Source: an uncultured Pirellulales bacterium (GTDB taxonomy: Bacteria > Planctomycetota > Phycisphaerae > Sedimentisphaerales > Anaerobacaceae). Taken from it: a stretch of DNA of 44,342 nucleotides. A model generated the notes under the pieces. The model worked only from the letters and a program-made list of their open reading frames with translations. It made no database searches and had not been told where the DNA came from. This document shows positions 19,810 through 25,685 of this stretch, in pieces (within the stretch, counting starts at the first letter, position 1; each line of letters starts with the position of its first letter). The DNA lies in assembly GCA_964395535.1 (NCBI GenBank), contig CAYNDE010000001.1:1-44342 (forward strand), in the 5' to 3' direction. The position numbers and the translations under genes are program-made.

Positions 19810-20799
19810 CTAAACGCTGACATGACAGAGTACAGCGAGTGCCCAGAGCAAATCATTTTTATTTACAATTTTTGTTTCGTATTTTTCATTAATAGGTATC
19901 AGGTGTACATTTTCTTCTTCCATTCTGATAAGCTTACAGGTAACTCCTATCTGGTTTTTAATATGAACAAGCCCAATCTGTCCCTGGGCCGCCGGCACTG
20001 ACGGGCTTACGATAATAATATCACCGTCATTTACTCTGGGCGACATACTGTCACCATCAACTCTCAACGCGAAGCTGTCATTAAAAATCTTATGAATCTG
20101 CTCGCACTGGACAAACTCAACTATATCATCCGATTGAGTTGAACTTATCTGAACAAGGTTAGCCTCTGATTCTTTCAGGCCGTCTATTACGGCCTCTGCC
20201 TGCAAATCTACAGATATTGTTCCATCTGCAAAACCAATAATTTTTTTACCGGTATATTTCTTAACCAGCTCGTCGAGCTCTGTAACAGCCTGCTTTGACT
20301 CCGGTATGATTTGCTGCTGCCAAAAATGAACAAGACCTGCTGCTGTCCTTCCGAGAACCGGTATCCAGGCAGGCCTTTCTTTTTTTAATTCTTGCCGGGA
20401 TTGAGAGATTCGTTCTTCAATTCCCTTTTTCTGGCTCAGAATGTCAATGAAAGCAGATATTGGCTCAATTAGTTCTGGATTGCTTGCCAATAGAGTACTT
20501 ATTTTACGCATAAGCGTATAATTACCCTGCCCTATTATATTATTTTCCGCGTATTTAGAAAATTTTTCGGTTTTTTTACCCGTTACAAGCCAGTTTAAAT
20601 CAGTATCGGTCACATTACAAATCTTAATCAATACTTCAATCGGGGGCACTCTATTAATTTCATAATAGCTGTATGTAGAAGGACTTATGCCTAAAGAGTG
20701 AGCAAACTGACTCTTTCCTCTTTCGCCCGCAAATCGCTCGCGAACCTCTCTTATACGCCCAATTATCGCATTAACGTCAAAACTGCTCATGTAATTCAC
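19810..20799 (-). CDS. XRE-family HTH fused to an S24 (LexA/CI-like) autopeptidase, with unusually long internal segments
   Basis: N-terminal HTH FAHSLGISPSTYSYYEINRVPPIEVLIKICNVTDTDLNWLVTG. LexA-like cleavage context IPVLGRTAAGLV. S24 core LRVDGDSMSPRVNDGDIIIV ... VTCKLI. The start is GTG (20799) or ATG (20790). Confidence 0.8.
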   Translation of the reverse strand: MNYMSSFDVNAIIGRIREVRERFAGERGKSQFAHSLGISPSTYSYYEINRVPPIEVLIKICNVTDTDLNWLVTGKKTEKFSKYAENNIIGQGNYTLMRKISTLLASNPELIEPISAFIDILSQKKGIEERISQSRQELKKERPAWIPVLGRTAAGLVHFWQQQIIPESKQAVTELDELVKKYTGKKIIGFADGTISVDLQAEAVIDGLKESEANLVQISSTQSDDIVEFVQCEQIHKIFNDSFALRVDGDSMSPRVNDGDIIIVSPSVPAAQGQIGLVHIKNQIGVTCKLIRMEEENVHLIPINEKYETKIVNKNDLLWALAVLCHVSV

Positions 20800-20816
20800 A
20801 TATATAAAAATAAATA

Positions 20817-20844
20817 TTGACTATGTTCGCATATGCGTTATATT
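20817..20844 (+). promoter_or_regulatory. Sigma70-type promoter (TTGACT-16-TATATT) with a 10-bp perfect palindrome CGCATATGCG in the spacer; candidate operator shared by divergent genes
   Basis: TTGACT at 20817-20822, TATATT at 20839-20844, palindrome at 20828-20837. The site lies between the XRE-S24 gene (minus strand) and a small plus-strand ORF. Confidence 0.4.
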
Positions 20845-20919
20845 TATTTACAAATGAATAACTTTAATTCGTATTTTAGTAATAAAAAAAAATTAGTCAA
20901 TAAAAAGAAAGGAAAATAA

Positions 20920-21096
20920 ATGTCGAGTGGAAAAAGCAATATTGAAAAGAAAAAATCAAAAAATAATGAACAGTTACATGAAAAAGAGAAAAGAAGTGCA
21001 AGTGAGAAACTAGATTTTTTACTGGAATTGAACAGTTTAGAGGGAGCATTGCTTCGTCAACTGAAAAGAGACCTTAAAGAAAGGCAGGTTATTTGA
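20920..21096 (+). CDS. Small hypothetical Lys/Glu-rich protein (58 aa), below the ORF-track cutoff
   Basis: ATG at 20920 preceded by GAAAGGAAAATAA. Translation: MSSGKSNIEKKKSKNNEQLHEKEKRSASEKLDFLLELNSLEGALLRQLKRDLKERQVI. An 8-bp hairpin GAAAGGCA/TGCCTTTC spans the stop. There is no homology evidence, so coding status is uncertain. Confidence 0.3.
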   Translation: MSSGKSNIEKKKSKNNEQLHEKEKRSASEKLDFLLELNSLEGALLRQLKRDLKERQVI

Positions 21097-21369
21097 TTTG
21101 CCTTTCCAGCACGAGACCGGGAAAAGCAATCTAAATTCACGTTAACAAAAATATTGTATATAAATAAAAAAAGGTACAAATAAAATTTCGACCGTCGAGA
21201 CGGTTTAGCTTGTACGTACAAAAATCTTATACCTTTCAGGCAAATCAATTTTCAGTTTGATATATTGACATCAAGGTTTTATAACATTCTGTACAGTCAT
21301 CCAGATATGGCCGTTATACCGAAACAATGAAACAAGTGCAAAAAAGAAGAAAAAAATGGAGATAAAAAA

Positions 21370-23055
21370 ATGATAAGGCTAACACAAAAAGCTGTTATTT
21401 TAACAGCTACGTTTTTACTTATCGGCTGCGAATCCAAAAAAGAAGAAAAACAGTTATCTGAGTTCATCGAGCAGCATATAAAGAAGCTCGAGCCGCTTGA
21501 AATACAATACGAGCAGGCTTACTGGGAAGGGGCAACAACGGGTAATAAAGAGTTTTTCGAACAACAAGGCAAACTGGAGCTGAAGATACGCCGGCTCTAT
21601 CAAAACGCAGATGAGTACGCATTTCTGAAATCGCTAAAACAATCAGGACGGATACAAGATGCCAAACTGGCTCGCCAGCTTGATAAGCTGTACTACGCTT
21701 ATTTGAAGAACCAAATAGAACCCAATTTACTAAAAAAAATAGTCGAGCTCGATAACAAGATAAGGAACACATACAACAATTACCGCGGCACAATAGACGA
21801 CCAAAAGGTTACTATGAGCGAGATTTACACGATAATGACGACGGAAAAAGACAGCCGAAAAAGAGAGCTTGCCTGGAGGGCGAGTAAAGAAGTGGGTAAT
21901 GTGATTTTCGATGACCTGATTCAGCTTGTCAAGCTGAGAAACCAGGCTGCTCGCAACGTCGGCTTTGATAATTATCATACCCTAAGCATAGTTACAGGTG
22001 AACAAAGCATCGAGCAGTTAGACCAGATTTTCGATGAGCTCGATGAGTTGACTGCCGAGCCCTTTGCAGAAATGAAGGCGGAACTGGATGAGATTCTGGC
22101 AGAGAGCTACGGCATTGAGGTAAGCGATATTCGGCCGTGGCATTATCACGACCCATTTTTTCAAAGAAGCCCGCTCGTCTATGAACTTAATCTCGACGAC
22201 TATTACGCAAAGGCAGATGTAAAACAAATAGCCCAGAGATATTACGAAGGGGTCGGCCTGCCGGCAGACGATATACTTGCACGAAGTGATTTATACGACC
22301 GTGAAGGTAAGTACCCACATGCATTCGGACAGGCGATAGACCGTCACGGCAACGCCCGCATCTTGTGTAATCTGCAAAATACTGAAAGGTGGATGGAGAC
22401 GATATTGCACGAATTAGGGCACGCCCTTTACAGTAAATATCATGACCAGAATGAGCCGTATTTATTAAGGGAGCCTGCGCATAGTTTTACTACCGAGGCG
22501 GCCGCGATGTTTTTCGGGCGGTTGAGCAGAAATTCGAACTGGATGAAGGAGATGCTCGGACTGTCAGAACAGCAGCGTAATGAAATTGACGAGGTCAGCG
22601 AAAAATATTTACAATTCCAGCAGATACTTTTCGCCCGGTGGGTACTGGTTATGTACAACTTCGAGAAGCAGCTTTACGCCGACCCGGAACAGGACCTCAA
22701 CAGTTTATGGTGGGACCTTGTTGAGAAATATCAGCTTGTTAAACGTCCGCCCGGGCCTGTGGACGCTGGCTGGGCATCGAAACTTCACTTTGTAACCGCA
22801 CCGTGCTATTACCATAACTATATGCTCGGCGAACTCTTGGCCAGCCAATGGCATCATTATTTAGTGCATAATATTTTTGGGCTGGATCCTGATGAAAGTG
22901 TAAGCTATGCAAAAGACAAAAAAATAGGTAAGTATTTCAGAGAAGAAGTTTTCGAGCCGGGCGCGGTATATCACTGGAGCGAGATGATAGAACGCTCGAC
23001 CGGTGAAAAGTTAAATCCTAAATACTTCGTTAATCAATTTGTAAAGCACAAATAA
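21370..23055 (+). CDS. Lipoprotein zinc metallopeptidase, gluzincin of the M2 (ACE-like)/M3 type
   Basis: Lipobox FLLIGC. HExxH in TILHELGHALY with a downstream Glu in TTEAAAMFFG. The N-terminal AYWEGATTGNKEFFEQ resembles the ACE-family pattern. GGAG RBS. Confidence 0.65.
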   Translation: MIRLTQKAVILTATFLLIGCESKKEEKQLSEFIEQHIKKLEPLEIQYEQAYWEGATTGNKEFFEQQGKLELKIRRLYQNADEYAFLKSLKQSGRIQDAKLARQLDKLYYAYLKNQIEPNLLKKIVELDNKIRNTYNNYRGTIDDQKVTMSEIYTIMTTEKDSRKRELAWRASKEVGNVIFDDLIQLVKLRNQAARNVGFDNYHTLSIVTGEQSIEQLDQIFDELDELTAEPFAEMKAELDEILAESYGIEVSDIRPWHYHDPFFQRSPLVYELNLDDYYAKADVKQIAQRYYEGVGLPADDILARSDLYDREGKYPHAFGQAIDRHGNARILCNLQNTERWMETILHELGHALYSKYHDQNEPYLLREPAHSFTTEAAAMFFGRLSRNSNWMKEMLGLSEQQRNEIDEVSEKYLQFQQILFARWVLVMYNFEKQLYADPEQDLNSLWWDLVEKYQLVKRPPGPVDAGWASKLHFVTAPCYYHNYMLGELLASQWHHYLVHNIFGLDPDESVSYAKDKKIGKYFREEVFEPGAVYHWSEMIERSTGEKLNPKYFVNQFVKHK

Positions 23056-23076: not shown

Positions 23077-23106
23077 AACGAAGCAGCTCTTTAAGGCCGC
23101 TTCGTT
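23077..23106 (+). terminator. Candidate terminator after the peptidase gene
   Basis: AACGAAGC ... GCTTCGTT forms an 8-bp stem with a 14-nt loop, followed by ACCTAATTTT. Confidence 0.4.
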
Positions 23107-23181
23107 ACCTAATTTTCACTAAGCACACAGACCCAAACTCTGCATACGGATTGCAATTATAAAACCGTTCAGGGCAAGCGC

Positions 23182-23242
23182 ATAAAAAACAGGGCTGGGT
23201 TGCGGAGGGAGGAGACAACGAGATTTCCCAGCCCCGTTGACT
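23182..23242 (-). ncRNA. Candidate small RNA, copy 1: GC-rich 8-bp stem, 27-nt C/U-rich loop, U-tail (minus-strand reading)
   Basis: Stem GGGCTGGG (23192-23199) / CCCAGCCC (23227-23234). On the minus strand the loop reads AAAUCUCGUUGUCUCCUCCCUCCGCAA, followed by UGUUUUUUAU. A perfect TATAAT (23249-23254, minus) lies 13 nt upstream of the stem, but the -35 is poor. The ends are estimates. Confidence 0.3.
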
Positions 23243-23330
23243 TTATATATTATACAGCATTTAACAAAAACCGCTTCTCAGGATTTCCCTGATTTCGGCG
23301 GTATAAATACCTGATTAAAACACACATACA

Positions 23331-23392
23331 TAAAAACTAAGGGCTGGGTTGCGGAGGGAGGGAGGAGGAGACACCCAGCCCTTTTGATAACA
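23331..23392 (-). ncRNA. Candidate small RNA, copy 2: GC-rich 9-bp stem, 23-nt C/U-rich loop, U-tail (minus-strand reading)
   Basis: Stem GGGCTGGGT (23341-23349) / ACCCAGCCC (23373-23381). The minus-strand loop is GUCUCCUCCUCCCUCCCUCCGCA, followed by UUAGUUUUUAU. It has its own promoter (next feature). The ends are estimates. Confidence 0.4.
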
Positions 23393-23398
23393 TACACT

Positions 23399-23427
23399 AT
23401 AATACCAGAAAACAATGAGCCTGTCTA
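23399..23427 (-). promoter_or_regulatory. Sigma70-type promoter for candidate sRNA copy 2: TAGACA-17-TGgTATTAT
   Basis: Minus-strand reading: TAGACA (23427-23422), a 17-nt spacer, and an extended -10 TGGTATTAT (-10 at 23404-23399). The hairpin begins 17 nt downstream of the -10. Confidence 0.4.
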
Positions 23428-23758
23428 CAAATTTTGGCAAAAAATATTCAATTTTCAAAGAAAATTACGAGATAAATCCTATTATAAAGTCACCTTATAC
23501 AGCACCGATTAACAAAAAATAAATCACGGTTACGAGGAACAAAGAGGAGCACAAATCACAGCCGGTGATACCGTCAAAGCCCCTCGCCACCAAAAAAATC
23601 GATAATACTCACCTTCGCCAAGCAATAGATAAAACCCCATTGGAAATGAAGGATACAGCACATAGAGCAAAGTTTCCAGTAAAAAATTTAAATAAAAATT
23701 CAATTTTTACCCCCCAAAAACCAGGGCTTAGCTTATACCAAATATTAGAAGGTCATTA

Positions 23759-23787
23759 TTGACTAATCCGCCTTTATAAACTATTCT
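23759..23787 (+). promoter_or_regulatory. Candidate sigma70 promoter for aspS (TTGACT-17-TATTCT)
   Basis: TTGACT at 23759-23764 and TATTCT at 23782-23787, about 75 nt upstream of the aspS ATG. Confidence 0.35.
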
Positions 23788-23861: not shown

Positions 23862-25685
23862 ATGCTGAAAAGGACACATAATTGCGGCCAGCTCCGTCTC
23901 GAAGACGACGGGGCAAAAGTAATCTTGGCAGGATGGGTCAAGTCATACCGGGACCACGGTAACCTGGTCTTTTTCGACCTTCGTGATAGATACGGTATCA
24001 CACAATTGGTCTTTGACCCTGAAAGCCAGCCTGAAGCCCACAAACTCGCAAGAGCTGTCCGCTGCGAGTGGGTAATCGCTGCTGAAGGTACCGTTCGTCC
24101 AAGAGGAAAAGGTCTTGAGAATCCCAAGCTTGCCACAGGCCAGATTGAGGTTATAGTAAATAAACTCGAAATCCTCAACCAGACAACAACGCCGCCGTTC
24201 GAAATCGAAGATGCAGACAAAACAGCCGAGGAGCTGCGCCTCAAGTACCGTTACATCGACCTGCGAAGACCAAAGATGCAAAAAAACATAAACATCAGGC
24301 ACAAGGTCACAAAAATCACAAGGGATTACTTCGATGAAATCGGCTTCTGGGAAATAGAAACACCAATGCTGGCAAAAAGTACCCCCGAAGGAGCAAGGGA
24401 TTTTCTCGTTCCGAGCCGGCTTGTCAAAAATGCTTTTTACGCCCTGCCTCAATCGCCGCAGCTTTTCAAACAAATACTTATGGTTAGCGGCGTCGATAAA
24501 TATTTCCAGATTGTACGCTGCTTCCGCGACGAAGACCCAAGGGCTGACAGACAGGCTGAATTCACACAAATCGACGTCGAAGCGAGCTTTGTCGATGTGG
24601 ACGATATCATAAATATTAACTCACAACTCGTTGCCAGAATCTTCAGAGAAATCCTCGGCGTTGATGTTGCCATTCCCATCAGGCGGCTGAGTTATAAAGA
24701 GGCGATGGATGACTACGGAACCGACCGGCCTGACCTGCGATTTGGTATGAAATTAAAAGACGTATCCGACATTGTAAGAGAAAGCAGCTTCAAAGTCTTT
24801 GCTTCGACAATCGAAGCCGGCGGTGTTGTCAAGGGCCTGTGTACACCATCGACACTGCCGGACGGAACACAAATCCTCACAAGAAACTACGTCGAAAAAA
24901 ATCTTACGGAATTTATCGCAGATTATGGAGCAAAAGGATTAGCCTGGCTGAAAGTCACATCAAAAGAAGGCAAACTAACCTGTACAAGCAGTATTGCAAA
25001 ATATTTCTCTGCAGAACAAATTGACGCACTAATCGAGTGCTTTAACGCAAAAGAAGACGACCTGCTGCTTTTTGTCGCAGATACTGAGAAAAGTGCCAAC
25101 AAAGCACTTGCTCCTTTAAGAAACAGGCTCGGCAAAGAGCTAAAGCTTTATGACCCAAAAACTTTCGAGTTCGTCTGGATAGTCGATTTTCCTCTTTTCG
25201 AATGGAATGAAAACGAAAAACGTTTCGACTCGCTGCATCACCCTTTCACGGCACCGGTTGAAGAGGATATTGTGAAACTGGATACCGACCCTGCAAACAT
25301 CAAATCGCAGGCCTACGATATTGTCGTCAACGGCTCCGAAATCGGCGGGGGGAGCATTCGTATTCACAATCCGAAAGTACAGCAAAAAATCTTTGAACTG
25401 CTGAACATCTCAAAAAAACAGGCTGAGCAGCGTTTTGGCTTCTTTCTAAAAGCCCTAACATATGGAGCACCGCCGCACGGCGGTATAGCTTTCGGACTCG
25501 ACCGAATCATTATGCTCTTGATAGGAACCAACAACATCAGAGACGTAATCGCTTTTCCGAAAACTCAAAGGGGACAATGCCTTCTTACCGATGCACCCAG
25601 CGAGGTCGATATAAAACAGCTCGAAGAACTCAACCTCAGGACCCAAAAGCACTCTCACAAAATCGAACAAGATACTAATGAATAA
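23862..25685 (+). CDS. aspS: Aspartyl-tRNA synthetase
   Basis: MLKRTHNCGQLR..., class II motifs (FRDEDPRADRQAEFTQID; GGGSIRIH; GIAFGLDR). The track start 23847 is a TTG; the ATG at 23862 gives the canonical N-terminus. Confidence 0.95.
   Translation: MLKRTHNCGQLRLEDDGAKVILAGWVKSYRDHGNLVFFDLRDRYGITQLVFDPESQPEAHKLARAVRCEWVIAAEGTVRPRGKGLENPKLATGQIEVIVNKLEILNQTTTPPFEIEDADKTAEELRLKYRYIDLRRPKMQKNINIRHKVTKITRDYFDEIGFWEIETPMLAKSTPEGARDFLVPSRLVKNAFYALPQSPQLFKQILMVSGVDKYFQIVRCFRDEDPRADRQAEFTQIDVEASFVDVDDIININSQLVARIFREILGVDVAIPIRRLSYKEAMDDYGTDRPDLRFGMKLKDVSDIVRESSFKVFASTIEAGGVVKGLCTPSTLPDGTQILTRNYVEKNLTEFIADYGAKGLAWLKVTSKEGKLTCTSSIAKYFSAEQIDALIECFNAKEDDLLLFVADTEKSANKALAPLRNRLGKELKLYDPKTFEFVWIVDFPLFEWNENEKRFDSLHHPFTAPVEEDIVKLDTDPANIKSQAYDIVVNGSEIGGGSIRIHNPKVQQKIFELLNISKKQAEQRFGFFLKALTYGAPPHGGIAFGLDRIIMLLIGTNNIRDVIAFPKTQRGQCLLTDAPSEVDIKQLEELNLRTQKHSHKIEQDTNE

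What the first reader, a model, noticed from the sequence alone, without database searches (positions are those of the whole stretch)
23178..23430. Two tandem copies of a promoter-hairpin-U-tail element with C/U-rich (anti-Shine-Dalgarno-like) loops: candidate novel sRNA pair
Two copies lie about 150 bp apart. Both share the CATAAAAA flank, the stem GGGCTGGG(T)/(A)CCCAGCCC, a purine-rich loop (plus strand: GCGGAGGGAGG...GAGAC), and an A/T-rich box beyond the stem. Read on the minus strand, each copy looks like a complete tiny gene: a -10 box 13-17 nt upstream (TATAAT for copy 1; TAGACA-17-TGgTATTAT for copy 2), an 8-9 bp GC stem with an unpaired 23-27 nt loop (GUCUCCUCC(UCC)CUCCGCA), and a U-tract (UGUUUUUUAU or UUAGUUUUUAU). 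No minus-strand protein gene lies upstream that these would terminate. Repeated CCUCC in an open loop is what one expects of RNAs that pair with GGAGG ribosome-binding sites. The plus-strand alternative gives GGA-rich loops (3-5 GGA motifs each) of the CsrA/RsmA-sponge type, or possibly a two-tier G-quadruplex.
Basis: partly seen in the sequence, partly recalled or inferred. Interest (0 to 1): 0.65.

Follow-up and report, generated by a model that had tools for sequence, protein, structure and literature searches.

The report
Tandem anti-Shine-Dalgarno-loop small RNA genes
The two hairpins are most likely two minus-strand genes for ~60-nt regulatory RNAs, members of a widespread and so far uncatalogued Planctomycetota RNA family whose open C/U-rich loop imitates the ribosome's anti-Shine-Dalgarno sequence.

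Summary
Two hairpins (23192-23234 and 23341-23381) sit 149 nt apart in the 806-nt spacer between a peptidase gene and aspS.

- **Conservation:** both hairpins, loops included, are identical in four other species-level Pirellulales MAGs, while the flanks are about 80% identical.
- **Family:** a metagenome scan and a covariance model found more than 170 related units, all intergenic and often in tandem clusters of 2-5. Each has a conserved CCUCCCUCC-type loop and a U-tract on the C-rich strand.
- **Structure:** 9 of 10 stem pairs show compensatory changes.
- **Strand:** G·U pairs outnumber A·C by 59 to 2, which fixes the C-rich (window minus) strand as the RNA.
- **Promoters:** promoter-like boxes lie upstream on that strand only. 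Copy 2 has TAGACA-17-TATTAT. Copy 1 has a palindrome exactly 23 nt before TATAAT.

No Rfam family matches. The only hint is a sub-threshold hit to CcsR1, a cuckoo RNA. Function as an anti-SD mimic that occludes GGAGG ribosome-binding sites is inferred by analogy. No transcript data exist for the window and no target was found. The plus-strand readings (CsrA sponge, G-quadruplex) and a REP-type repeat are not supported.

The parts
23182..23243 (-). Predicted sRNA gene 1 (copy 1), about 60 nt: short 5' leader, hairpin, U-tail UGUUUUUUAU. Both ends are inferred, not mapped.
   Evidence: CM R1 hit at 23182-23240 on the minus strand, 50.3 bits, E 1.7e-13. Invariant in 5 species-level relatives. Fold.
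23192..23234 (-). Hairpin 1: 8-bp stem GGGCUGGG/CCCAGCCC with a 27-nt loop AAAUCUCGUUGUCUCCUCCCUCCGCAA
   Evidence: An identical hairpin occurs in L005-L008, L010, L012, L083, L095, L097 and L101.
23249..23254 (-). -10 box TATAAT of copy 1. There is no -35 hexamer.
   Evidence: GTATAAT is conserved in all relatives, while its distance to the hairpin varies through indels of up to 15 nt.
23278..23292 (.). Palindrome TCAGGATTTCCCTGA, exactly 23 nt upstream (minus strand) of the TATAAT. Inferred binding site for a transcription factor that takes the place of a -35 box.
   Evidence: The 23-nt spacing is fixed while the spacer sequence differs, in L005, L006, L007, L010, L012, L095, L097, L083, L101 and L021. 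The block is invariant in A1.
23300..23311 (.). Second palindrome GGTATAAATACC inside the invariant middle block. Role unknown.
   Evidence: Invariant in A1. Not conserved in the more distant L101 and L083.
23331..23392 (-). Predicted sRNA gene 2 (copy 2), about 62 nt: leader, hairpin, U-tail UUAGUUUUUAU. Both ends are inferred.
   Evidence: CM R1 hit at 23331-23387 on the minus strand, 57.2 bits, E 7.8e-16. Invariant in 5 relatives.
23341..23381 (-). Hairpin 2: 9-bp stem (11 bp counting the AA/UU extension) with a 23-nt loop GUCUCCUCCUCCCUCCCUCCGCA, which contains the exact CCUCCUCCC motif
23399..23427 (-). Sigma-70-like promoter of copy 2: TAGACA-17-TATTAT
   Evidence: Scan hit with 10 of 12 matches. 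The same T(A/G/T)GACA-17-TAT(T/G/C)(A/T)T arrangement occurs in L005-L008, L097, L010, L089, L033 and L055.
23525..23580 (-). Decayed third unit (the aspS-proximal 'type D'). The 5' arm and part of the CU loop survive; the 3' arm and U-tract are lost.
   Evidence: Aligns with intact units of L010, L097, L101 and L027 (A4). R1 does not detect it at E<=1.
23077..23106 (+). Terminator-like hairpin after the peptidase gene. It marks the left boundary of the sRNA locus.
   Evidence: (I9).
23759..23787 (+). Conserved promoter-like site of aspS (TTGACT-17-TATTCT). It shows that the hairpins are not part of the aspS 5' UTR.
   Evidence: The ATTATTGAC block is present in the close relatives that reach it and in L009, L010 and L011.

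Best explanation
The region holds two independently transcribed minus-strand genes for ~60-nt small RNAs. Each RNA has a 10-15-nt leader, one GC-rich stem that doubles as an intrinsic terminator with its U-tail, and a 23-27-nt single-stranded C/U-rich loop carrying CCUCC repeats.

They are paralogous members of a large multi-copy RNA family of Planctomycetota that is absent from Rfam.

**Shown:**
- The hairpin is a conserved, covarying RNA structure on the C-rich strand.
- The loop sequence is under strong constraint.
- The units are intergenic and carry promoter-like boxes on that strand.

**Inferred:**
- The two copies are regulated differently. Copy 2 has a sigma-70-like TAGACA-17-TATTAT promoter. 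Copy 1 has a promoter with no -35 box, whose palindrome 23 nt upstream of TATAAT is probably an activator site.
- The mechanism. The open loop mimics the 16S anti-Shine-Dalgarno sequence and pairs with GGAGG-type ribosome-binding sites. This would block translation initiation of the roughly one third of genes that use an SD in these genomes. The same action is proposed for the cuckoo/CcsR RNAs of alphaproteobacteria (and, from my own knowledge, for RsaE/RoxS of Firmicutes).
For: **Conservation in close relatives**
- The exact 21-mer occurs in 4 GTDB species representatives, all Pirellulales MAGs. Each has two copies 150-164 nt apart at the syntenic site.
- Both hairpins and loops are 100% identical in 5 sequences, against a mean column identity of 82% for the spacer.

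**A large family**
- L010 (AspRS 79% identical) has five units in tandem.
- Of 152 pattern matches in all loci fetched so far plus the window, 125 have a U-tract on the C-rich strand. All of these are intergenic.
- Covariance model R1 finds more than 170 units, including many that do not fit the search pattern. They form tandem clusters.

**Structure and strand**
- In A2 the first stem position left free by the search pattern is AU 22, GC 16, GU 10, CG 1, unpaired 0.
- In A3, 9 of 10 pairs show compensatory change and 94.9% of cells are paired, against at most 60% when the partners are slid.
- G·U/U·G outnumber A·C/C·A by 27 to 1 (A2) and 59 to 2 (A3).

**Promoters on the C-rich strand**
- A sigma-70-like site scoring at least 10 of 12 lies upstream in 18 of 85 units, against 0 of 80 in the opposite-strand control.
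- GAAC-N15-17-[CG]GTA lies upstream in 25 of 92 units, against 2 of 180 in controls.
- The palindrome-N23-TATAAT spacing is fixed in 11 loci.

**Unbiased sample, expression, loop and SD use**
- Loci chosen through AspRS alone carry units upstream of aspS and antisense to it in 4 of 7 lineages.
- Metatranscriptome contigs from wetland, peat and soil cover related units.
- The loops are predicted to be unpaired.
- Copy 2 contains CCUCCUCCC, the defining loop motif of the cuckoo family (PMC4615179).
- About one third of genes in the window and the loci have GGAG/GAGG-type SDs.
Against: - There is no transcript evidence for the window itself. The RNA evidence for relatives comes from unstranded contigs that often run on into unlike sequence, so it gives neither strand nor ends.
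- No target was identified. Loop-to-TIR duplex energies in the window are no better than in coding controls, and GGAGGGAGG-like sites occur at chance frequency.
- A terminator hairpin with a 23-27-nt loop is unusual, and its termination efficiency is unknown.
- The stem positions GGGCUG/CAGCCC and the loop core were fixed by my own search pattern in much of the data. Only the CM-found units test them independently.
- Promoter rules for Planctomycetota are not established.
Confidence: 0.7

Rival explanations
1. The RNAs are real and come from the minus strand, but they act as protein decoys. The long unstructured pyrimidine-rich loop would titrate a C/U-binding protein (candidates from my own knowledge: ribosomal protein S1, Rho, Hfq or a KH-domain protein) rather than pairing with mRNAs.
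For: The gene copies are multiple and near-identical, arranged in tandem, as in sponge RNAs. The loop is G-poor and unstructured. No mRNA target was found in the available DNA.
Against: The constrained core is specifically CCUCCCUCC, the complement of GGAGG-type SDs, and not general C/U richness. The closest analogues with this motif are described as resembling an anti-SD. No candidate protein was tested.
Confidence: 0.15
2. The hairpins are only transcription terminators or insulators. They would stop antisense or divergent transcription coming from the aspS promoter region, and their product would have no function in trans.
For: A GC stem plus U-tract is present on the minus strand. A-tract/U-tract symmetry makes some units look bidirectional; copy 2 has UUUUG on the plus strand.
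Against: There is no co-directional upstream gene in the window or in most family members. The loops are 23-27 nt, and their sequence is as conserved as the stem. Each unit has its own promoter-like boxes at a fixed distance. Tandem arrays of up to five units are not needed for termination.
Confidence: 0.07
3. The element is a REP/MITE-like dispersed palindromic repeat with no RNA function.
For: It is a repeated, imperfectly palindromic element found in intergenic regions, sometimes in clusters.
Against: The window has only two intact units in 44 kb. The exact 21-mer sits at one locus per GTDB genome. The position relative to aspS is syntenic across lineages whose AspRS is 72-92% identical. 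The strand asymmetry (G·U against A·C, U-tract, promoters) is not expected of a DNA repeat. Whole genomes could not be scanned with the model.
Confidence: 0.04
4. The plus strand is the functional one: either a GGA-rich CsrA/RsmA-sponge RNA, or a G-quadruplex in DNA or RNA upstream of aspS.
For: The plus-strand loops carry 3-5 GGA motifs. Copy 2 has four G3 tracts (GGG-CT-GGG-TTGCGGA-GGG-A-GGG).
Against: On the G-rich strand the 59 wobble pairs become A·C mismatches. That strand has no U-tract after copy 1 and no promoter enrichment (0 of 80). Copy 1 and most family members lack four G3 tracts. The plus-strand folds are weaker. R1 scores the plus strand at 17.8 and 20.4 bits for the two window copies, against 50.3 and 57.2 on the minus strand.
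Confidence: 0.02

Closest known systems
Cuckoo RNA family of alphaproteobacteria (RSs0680/CcsR1-4 of Rhodobacter, SmelC397/NfeR1 and relatives; Rfam RF02791 CcsR1)
   Same: - Small RNAs whose hairpin loops carry a CCUCCUCCC-type motif that resembles an anti-SD.
- The stems vary by compensatory changes.
- There are several homologous copies per genome, some adjacent.
- Copy 2 contains the exact nonamer.
(PMC4615179.)
   Different: - The Rfam score is 16.1 bits against a gathering score of 65.3, E 0.41.
- The phylum differs: Planctomycetota rather than Alphaproteobacteria.
- Here each predicted transcript has one hairpin with a very large (23-27 nt) loop that is also the terminator, plus its own promoter. 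Cuckoo RNAs have 2-4 adjacent motif hairpins in one RNA.
- The stem sequence here is strongly conserved (GGGCUG.../...CAGCCC).
- No DUF1127 gene was seen next to it. This is convergence, not membership.
RsaE/RoxS (Firmicutes) and 6C RNA (Actinobacteria): sRNAs with C-rich loops (comparison from my own knowledge)
   Same: Unpaired C-rich loop motifs are thought to pair with G-rich SD regions of several mRNAs. A terminator hairpin lies at the 3' end.
   Different: No Rfam hit appeared even at E<=10 in the spacer. The motifs differ (CCCC/UCCC rather than CCUCCCUCC), as do the architectures and phyla.
Sigma-E/ECF-dependent sRNAs such as MicA, RybB and MicL of enterobacteria (from my own knowledge)
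   Same: Many family members outside the window carry a GAAC-N16-CGTA motif 19-26 nt before the stem. This resembles ECF-sigma promoters and suggests stress-induced sRNAs.
   Different: The two window copies do not have this motif. There is no sequence or structural relation, and the sigma factor is not identified.

Membership tests
Cuckoo RNA family / Rfam RF02791 CcsR1 | Matches the family covariance model at or above the gathering score | tested here: not met
   16.1 bits against a gathering score of 65.3, E 0.41, copy 2 only. Nothing at the gathering threshold in the window or in 12 related loci.
Cuckoo RNA family / Rfam RF02791 CcsR1 | Loop motif CCUCCUCCC in every hairpin | tested here: inconclusive
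   Copy 2's loop contains the exact CCUCCUCCC. Copy 1 has CUCCUCCCUCC without the exact nonamer. The family core is CCUCCCUCC.
Cuckoo RNA family / Rfam RF02791 CcsR1 | 2 to 4 adjacent motif-bearing hairpins within one transcript | tested here: not met
   Each unit has one motif hairpin followed by a U-tract and preceded by its own promoter-like boxes. Transcript limits are inferred, not measured.
Cuckoo RNA family / Rfam RF02791 CcsR1 | Occurs in Alphaproteobacteria (Rhodobacterales, Rhizobiales) | tested here: not met
   The carriers are MAGs titled 'uncultured Pirellulales bacterium'. The four neighbouring AspRS homologues that carry a source name are all labelled Planctomycetota bacterium.
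Intrinsic (Rho-independent) terminator of a protein gene | GC-rich stem directly followed by a U-tract | tested here: met
   Met on the minus strand for both copies and in 125 of 152 pattern matches.
Intrinsic (Rho-independent) terminator of a protein gene | Short loop (3-8 nt) and a position at the 3' end of a co-directional gene | tested here: not met
   The loops are 23-27 nt, so the terminator scan did not report them. The nearest gene upstream of them on the minus strand (aspS) points the other way.
CsrA/RsmA-sponge sRNAs (CsrB, RsmY/Z type) | GGA motifs exposed in the loops of the transcribed strand | tested here: not met
   The GGA motifs are on the G-rich strand. The wobble-pair asymmetry (59 to 2), the U-tracts and the promoter motifs all point to the C-rich strand as the RNA. 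Presence of csrA in the genome could not be checked.
REP/MITE-type dispersed repeat | Tens to hundreds of copies scattered over one genome, with no own promoter or terminator | tested here: inconclusive
   Two intact units in the 44-kb window. The exact 21-mer lies at one locus per GTDB genome. The position is syntenic. No complete genome could be scanned with the model.
G-quadruplex motif | Four G3 tracts separated by loops of 1-7 nt, conserved among relatives | tested here: not met
   Present in copy 2 only. Copy 1 and most family types (for example GGGCTGCGGTCAGGAGGGAGGAGAGGAG) lack four G3 tracts.

The most novel reading that the evidence does not exclude
The family could be a phylum-level, multi-copy system of anti-Shine-Dalgarno mimics. 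Different paralogues would be switched on by different regulators: a sigma-70-like promoter, an activator palindrome, or an ECF-sigma-like GAAC...CGTA promoter. When induced they would collectively mask GGAGG ribosome-binding sites. This would shift translation from the ~1/3 of genes that are SD-led to the SD-less majority, giving global control over the mode of translation initiation rather than control of a few targets.
Probability: 0.2. Interest if true: 0.85.

Novelty: new variant of a known kind. Interest (0 to 1): 0.66.

Why it matters
My literature searches found no regulatory small RNA described for Planctomycetota. This element is not in Rfam 15. Yet it is among the most conserved non-coding sequences at this locus and occurs in many uncultured lineages from salt marsh, wetland and peat.

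It would be an independent invention of the 'anti-SD loop' solution known from the alphaproteobacterial cuckoo RNAs, in a phylum where only about a third of genes carry an SD. That makes the link between SD usage and riboregulation testable.

The covariance model also gives annotators a ready marker: a 60-position model that separates strands by more than 30 bits.

Tried and rejected
- **Rfam:** the gathering threshold found nothing on the whole window or on 12 related loci. E-value mode on the spacer gave only chance-level hits, plus CcsR1 at 16 bits.
- **tRNA/tmRNA:** none.
- **RNA-seq for the window:** no RNA run holds it. Metatranscriptome contigs exist for relatives, but they are unstranded and run on into unlike sequence, so they give neither strand nor ends.
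- **Target search:** GGAGGGAGGAG-like sites in the window occur at chance level (8 found, 7.1 expected). Duplex energies of both loops against 31 translation-initiation regions are no better than against coding controls. A survey of 565 ORF starts in the loci showed about 32% with an SD-like run but no recurring extended target.
- **Middle conserved block (23277-23317) as an RNA hairpin or terminator:** rejected in favour of a DNA operator. Its distance to TATAAT is fixed at 23 nt while the spacer sequence changes.
- **Small-peptide reading of the minus-strand ORFs** (23278-23415 and 23315-23458): rejected. Loop lengths in the family differ by 1-8 nt with no multiple-of-three pattern, and the terminators lie inside these ORFs.
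- **aspS leader or riboswitch reading:** rejected. A conserved aspS promoter-like site lies downstream of the hairpins.
- **Finer taxonomy from cluster names:** gave only 'Planctomycetota bacterium'.

Full report
**1. The observation**

The spacer between an M2/M3-like metallopeptidase gene (21370-23055, +) and aspS (23862-25685, +; Pfam tRNA-synt_2, GAD, anticodon OB) is 806 nt long. It holds two hairpins:
- Copy 1 is GGGCTGGG-N27-CCCAGCCC at 23192-23234.
- Copy 2 is GGGCTGGGT-N23-ACCCAGCCC at 23341-23381, 149 nt further on.

The stem pattern occurs twice, against 0.00 expected in shuffles. Only the minus strand has a U-tract after each stem. The minus-strand RNA folds score z = -3.3 and -3.9, against -1.9 and -2.3 for the plus strand. 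The 23-27-nt loop stays unpaired. A TAGACA-17-TATTAT site (10 of 12 matches) precedes copy 2 on the minus strand. A TATAAT precedes copy 1.

**2. Close relatives**

An exact 21-mer from the hairpin occurs in four GTDB species representatives, all titled 'uncultured Pirellulales bacterium'. Each has two copies 150-164 nt apart at the same place between the peptidase gene and aspS.

In the alignment of the five spacers, mean column identity is 82%. Three stretches are invariant:
- 23178-23244 (copy 1 with its U-tail);
- 23277-23317 (a middle block);
- 23331-23396 (copy 2 with its U-tail).

The GTATAAT and TATTAT boxes are also invariant, except for one column inside 23331-23396. The distance between TATAAT and hairpin 1 changes through indels of up to 15 nt.

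A more distant relative, L010 (AspRS 79% identical), has five such units in tandem upstream of aspS. L009 (81%) has one. The window also keeps a decayed remnant of a third, aspS-proximal unit at about 23525-23580.

**3. A large family**

I scanned metagenome contigs for GGGCTG-N6-GGAGGGAGG-N5-35-CAGCCC.
- Of 152 matches in all loci fetched so far plus the window, 125 have a U-tract directly after the stem on the C-rich strand. The other 27 are GC-rich chance hits.
- All units with a U-tract are intergenic, and the upstream neighbour mostly points away.
- A covariance model built from 49 distinct hairpins (R1) finds more than 170 units on the C-rich strand. Many do not fit the search pattern.
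- Units often form tandem clusters of 2-5.

Loci chosen only through AspRS homologues (73-81% identical) carry units 0.3-2.2 kb upstream of aspS, always antisense to it, in 4 of 7 lineages. Neighbouring AspRS proteins are 72-74% identical to the window's. The four top AspRS homologues that carry a source name are all labelled Planctomycetota.

**4. Structure and strand**

In A2, the first stem position not fixed by my search pattern is A-U 22, G-C 16, G-U 10, C-G 1, unpaired 0.

In the model-derived alignment A3 (85 distinct rows):
- 9 of 10 stem pairs show compensatory double changes. Examples are GGACUGGG/CCCAGUCC, GGGUUGGG/UCCAACCC, GGGUCGAGG/CCUCGACCC and GGGUAGGG/CCCUACCC.
- 94.9% of cells pair, against at most 60% when the partners are slid.
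- None of 500 shuffles reaches any of the observed measures. This alignment was fitted to the model, so it leans towards the structure. The size of the effect and the A2 result make that caveat minor.

Wobble pairs decide the strand. G·U/U·G against A·C/C·A is 27:1 in A2 and 59:2 in A3. On the G-rich strand those wobbles would be mismatches. The RNA is therefore read from the C-rich strand, which is the window's minus strand.

**5. Promoters**

On the C-rich strand, sigma-70-like sites scoring at least 10 of 12 occur upstream of 18 of 85 units. The opposite-strand control gives 0 of 80, and shuffles give 3.7%.

Copy 2's T(A/G/T)GACA-17-TAT(T/G/C)(A/T)T arrangement recurs in its orthologues and in more distant members such as L033, L055 and L089.

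Copy 1 has no -35 box. Instead the palindrome TCAGGGAAATCCTGA (23292->23278) ends exactly 23 nt before TATAAT. This holds in the window's own genome and ten further loci, with different spacer sequences. I read this as an activator-dependent promoter; that is an inference. The same palindrome lies further upstream of a TTGCAA-16-TATATT promoter in longer family members, which have two extra 5' hairpins.

Elsewhere in the family, 25 of 92 units carry GAAC-N15-17-[CG]GTA, mostly 19-26 nt before the stem. Controls give 2 of 180 and shuffles 0.6%. From my own knowledge this resembles ECF-sigma promoters.

The predicted window transcripts run about 23242->23183 and about 23392->23331. These ends are inferred.

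**6. Expression**

No RNA run holds the window sequence. For a related locus (L019), contigs from the eight wetland, peat, soil and bioreactor RNA libraries I laid cover the two sRNA units and not the spacer between them. These contigs are unstranded. Many continue into unlike sequence, which means they come from other species. This is only weak evidence that family members are expressed.

**7. Function**

The constrained loop core, CCUCCCUCC, is the complement of GGAGG-type Shine-Dalgarno sequences. Copy 2 carries the exact CCUCCUCCC. About one third of ORFs in the window and the loci have a GGAG/GAGG-type SD.

The best-supported mechanism is occlusion of ribosome-binding sites by the open loop. 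This rests on analogy only. I found no target in the DNA available.

The rivals are:
- a protein decoy;
- pure terminators or insulators;
- a REP-like repeat;
- the plus-strand readings (CsrA sponge, G-quadruplex).

The plus-strand readings are contradicted by the wobble asymmetry, the missing plus-strand terminator and promoters, and the lack of conserved G3 tracts.

**8. Comparison with known families, and novelty**

The closest known system is the cuckoo RNA family (CcsR1-4, RSs0680, NfeR1 and others). Those RNAs have 2-4 adjacent hairpins, each with CCUCCUCCC in the loop. They have been found only in alphaproteobacteria (PMC4615179).

The window element works like a cuckoo RNA on paper, but it fails the membership tests:
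- 16.1 bits against a gathering score of 65.3;
- a different phylum;
- one large-loop terminator hairpin per gene, with its own promoter.

No Rfam family matches the window or 12 related loci. Literature searches found no description of it. I rate it a new variant of a known kind: a convergent anti-SD-loop sRNA family in Planctomycetota.

Noticed in passing
window 23278-23292 (also L016:2410, L114:1872, L030:297, L083, L101, L021): The palindrome AGG(G/A)AWTNCCTGA recurs next to family members. It lies exactly 23 nt before TATAAT in the copy-1 type, and about 63 nt before a TTGCAA-16-TATATT promoter in the long 'type C' RNAs. It is probably the site of an unidentified transcription factor that controls part of the family.
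   Followed up: partly
window 23525-23580 (minus strand): A decayed third unit. Its 5' arm and part of the CU-rich loop align with intact aspS-proximal units of L010, L097 and L101, but the 3' arm and U-tract are gone. This shows gain and loss of copies within the array.
   Followed up: yes
L014, L017, L019, L036, L091, L126, L134, L136 and others (not in the window): GAAC-N15-17-[CG]GTA lies 19-26 nt upstream of the stem in 25 of 92 family members, against 2 of 180 controls. It looks like an ECF-sigma promoter, so many paralogues may be induced by envelope or other stress.
   Followed up: partly
L016:2480-2670, L076, L087, L092 (type C members): Longer family members (~170 nt predicted) have two extra 5' hairpins. 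The first loop is G-rich (…CAGGGGG…) and could pair with the RNA's own CCCUCC loop, which would be a possible self-masking switch.
   Followed up: no
window 25678-25685; L009-L013, L133-L138: aspS is followed by a HAMP-HisKA-HATPase histidine kinase gene in all relatives. In the window and its closest relatives the two genes overlap by 8 nt. No response regulator lies beside them. This pairing of a tRNA synthetase with a sensor kinase is unusual and conserved.
   Followed up: no
L134:6825-9168, L136:6295-8592, L138:6536-9221, L019: In other lineages the sRNA units sit just after a conserved 492-498-aa Terminase_6C-like gene. That gene belongs to a cluster with ParB_N-like and small sigma-70-r4/UPF0122-like proteins, 1-2 kb upstream of aspS. 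The cluster looks phage-derived but is syntenic across lineages.
   Followed up: no
window 19810-20799 (minus strand) and 20800-21369: An HTH_3 + Peptidase_S24 (LexA/CI-like) repressor gene is followed by a 570-nt AT-rich non-coding spacer before the peptidase gene.
   Followed up: no
window 23077-23106: An 11-bp terminator-like hairpin lies right after the peptidase gene. The terminator scan calls it on the minus strand, with the tail UCUCUAUUAA. It marks the left boundary of the sRNA locus.
   Followed up: partly
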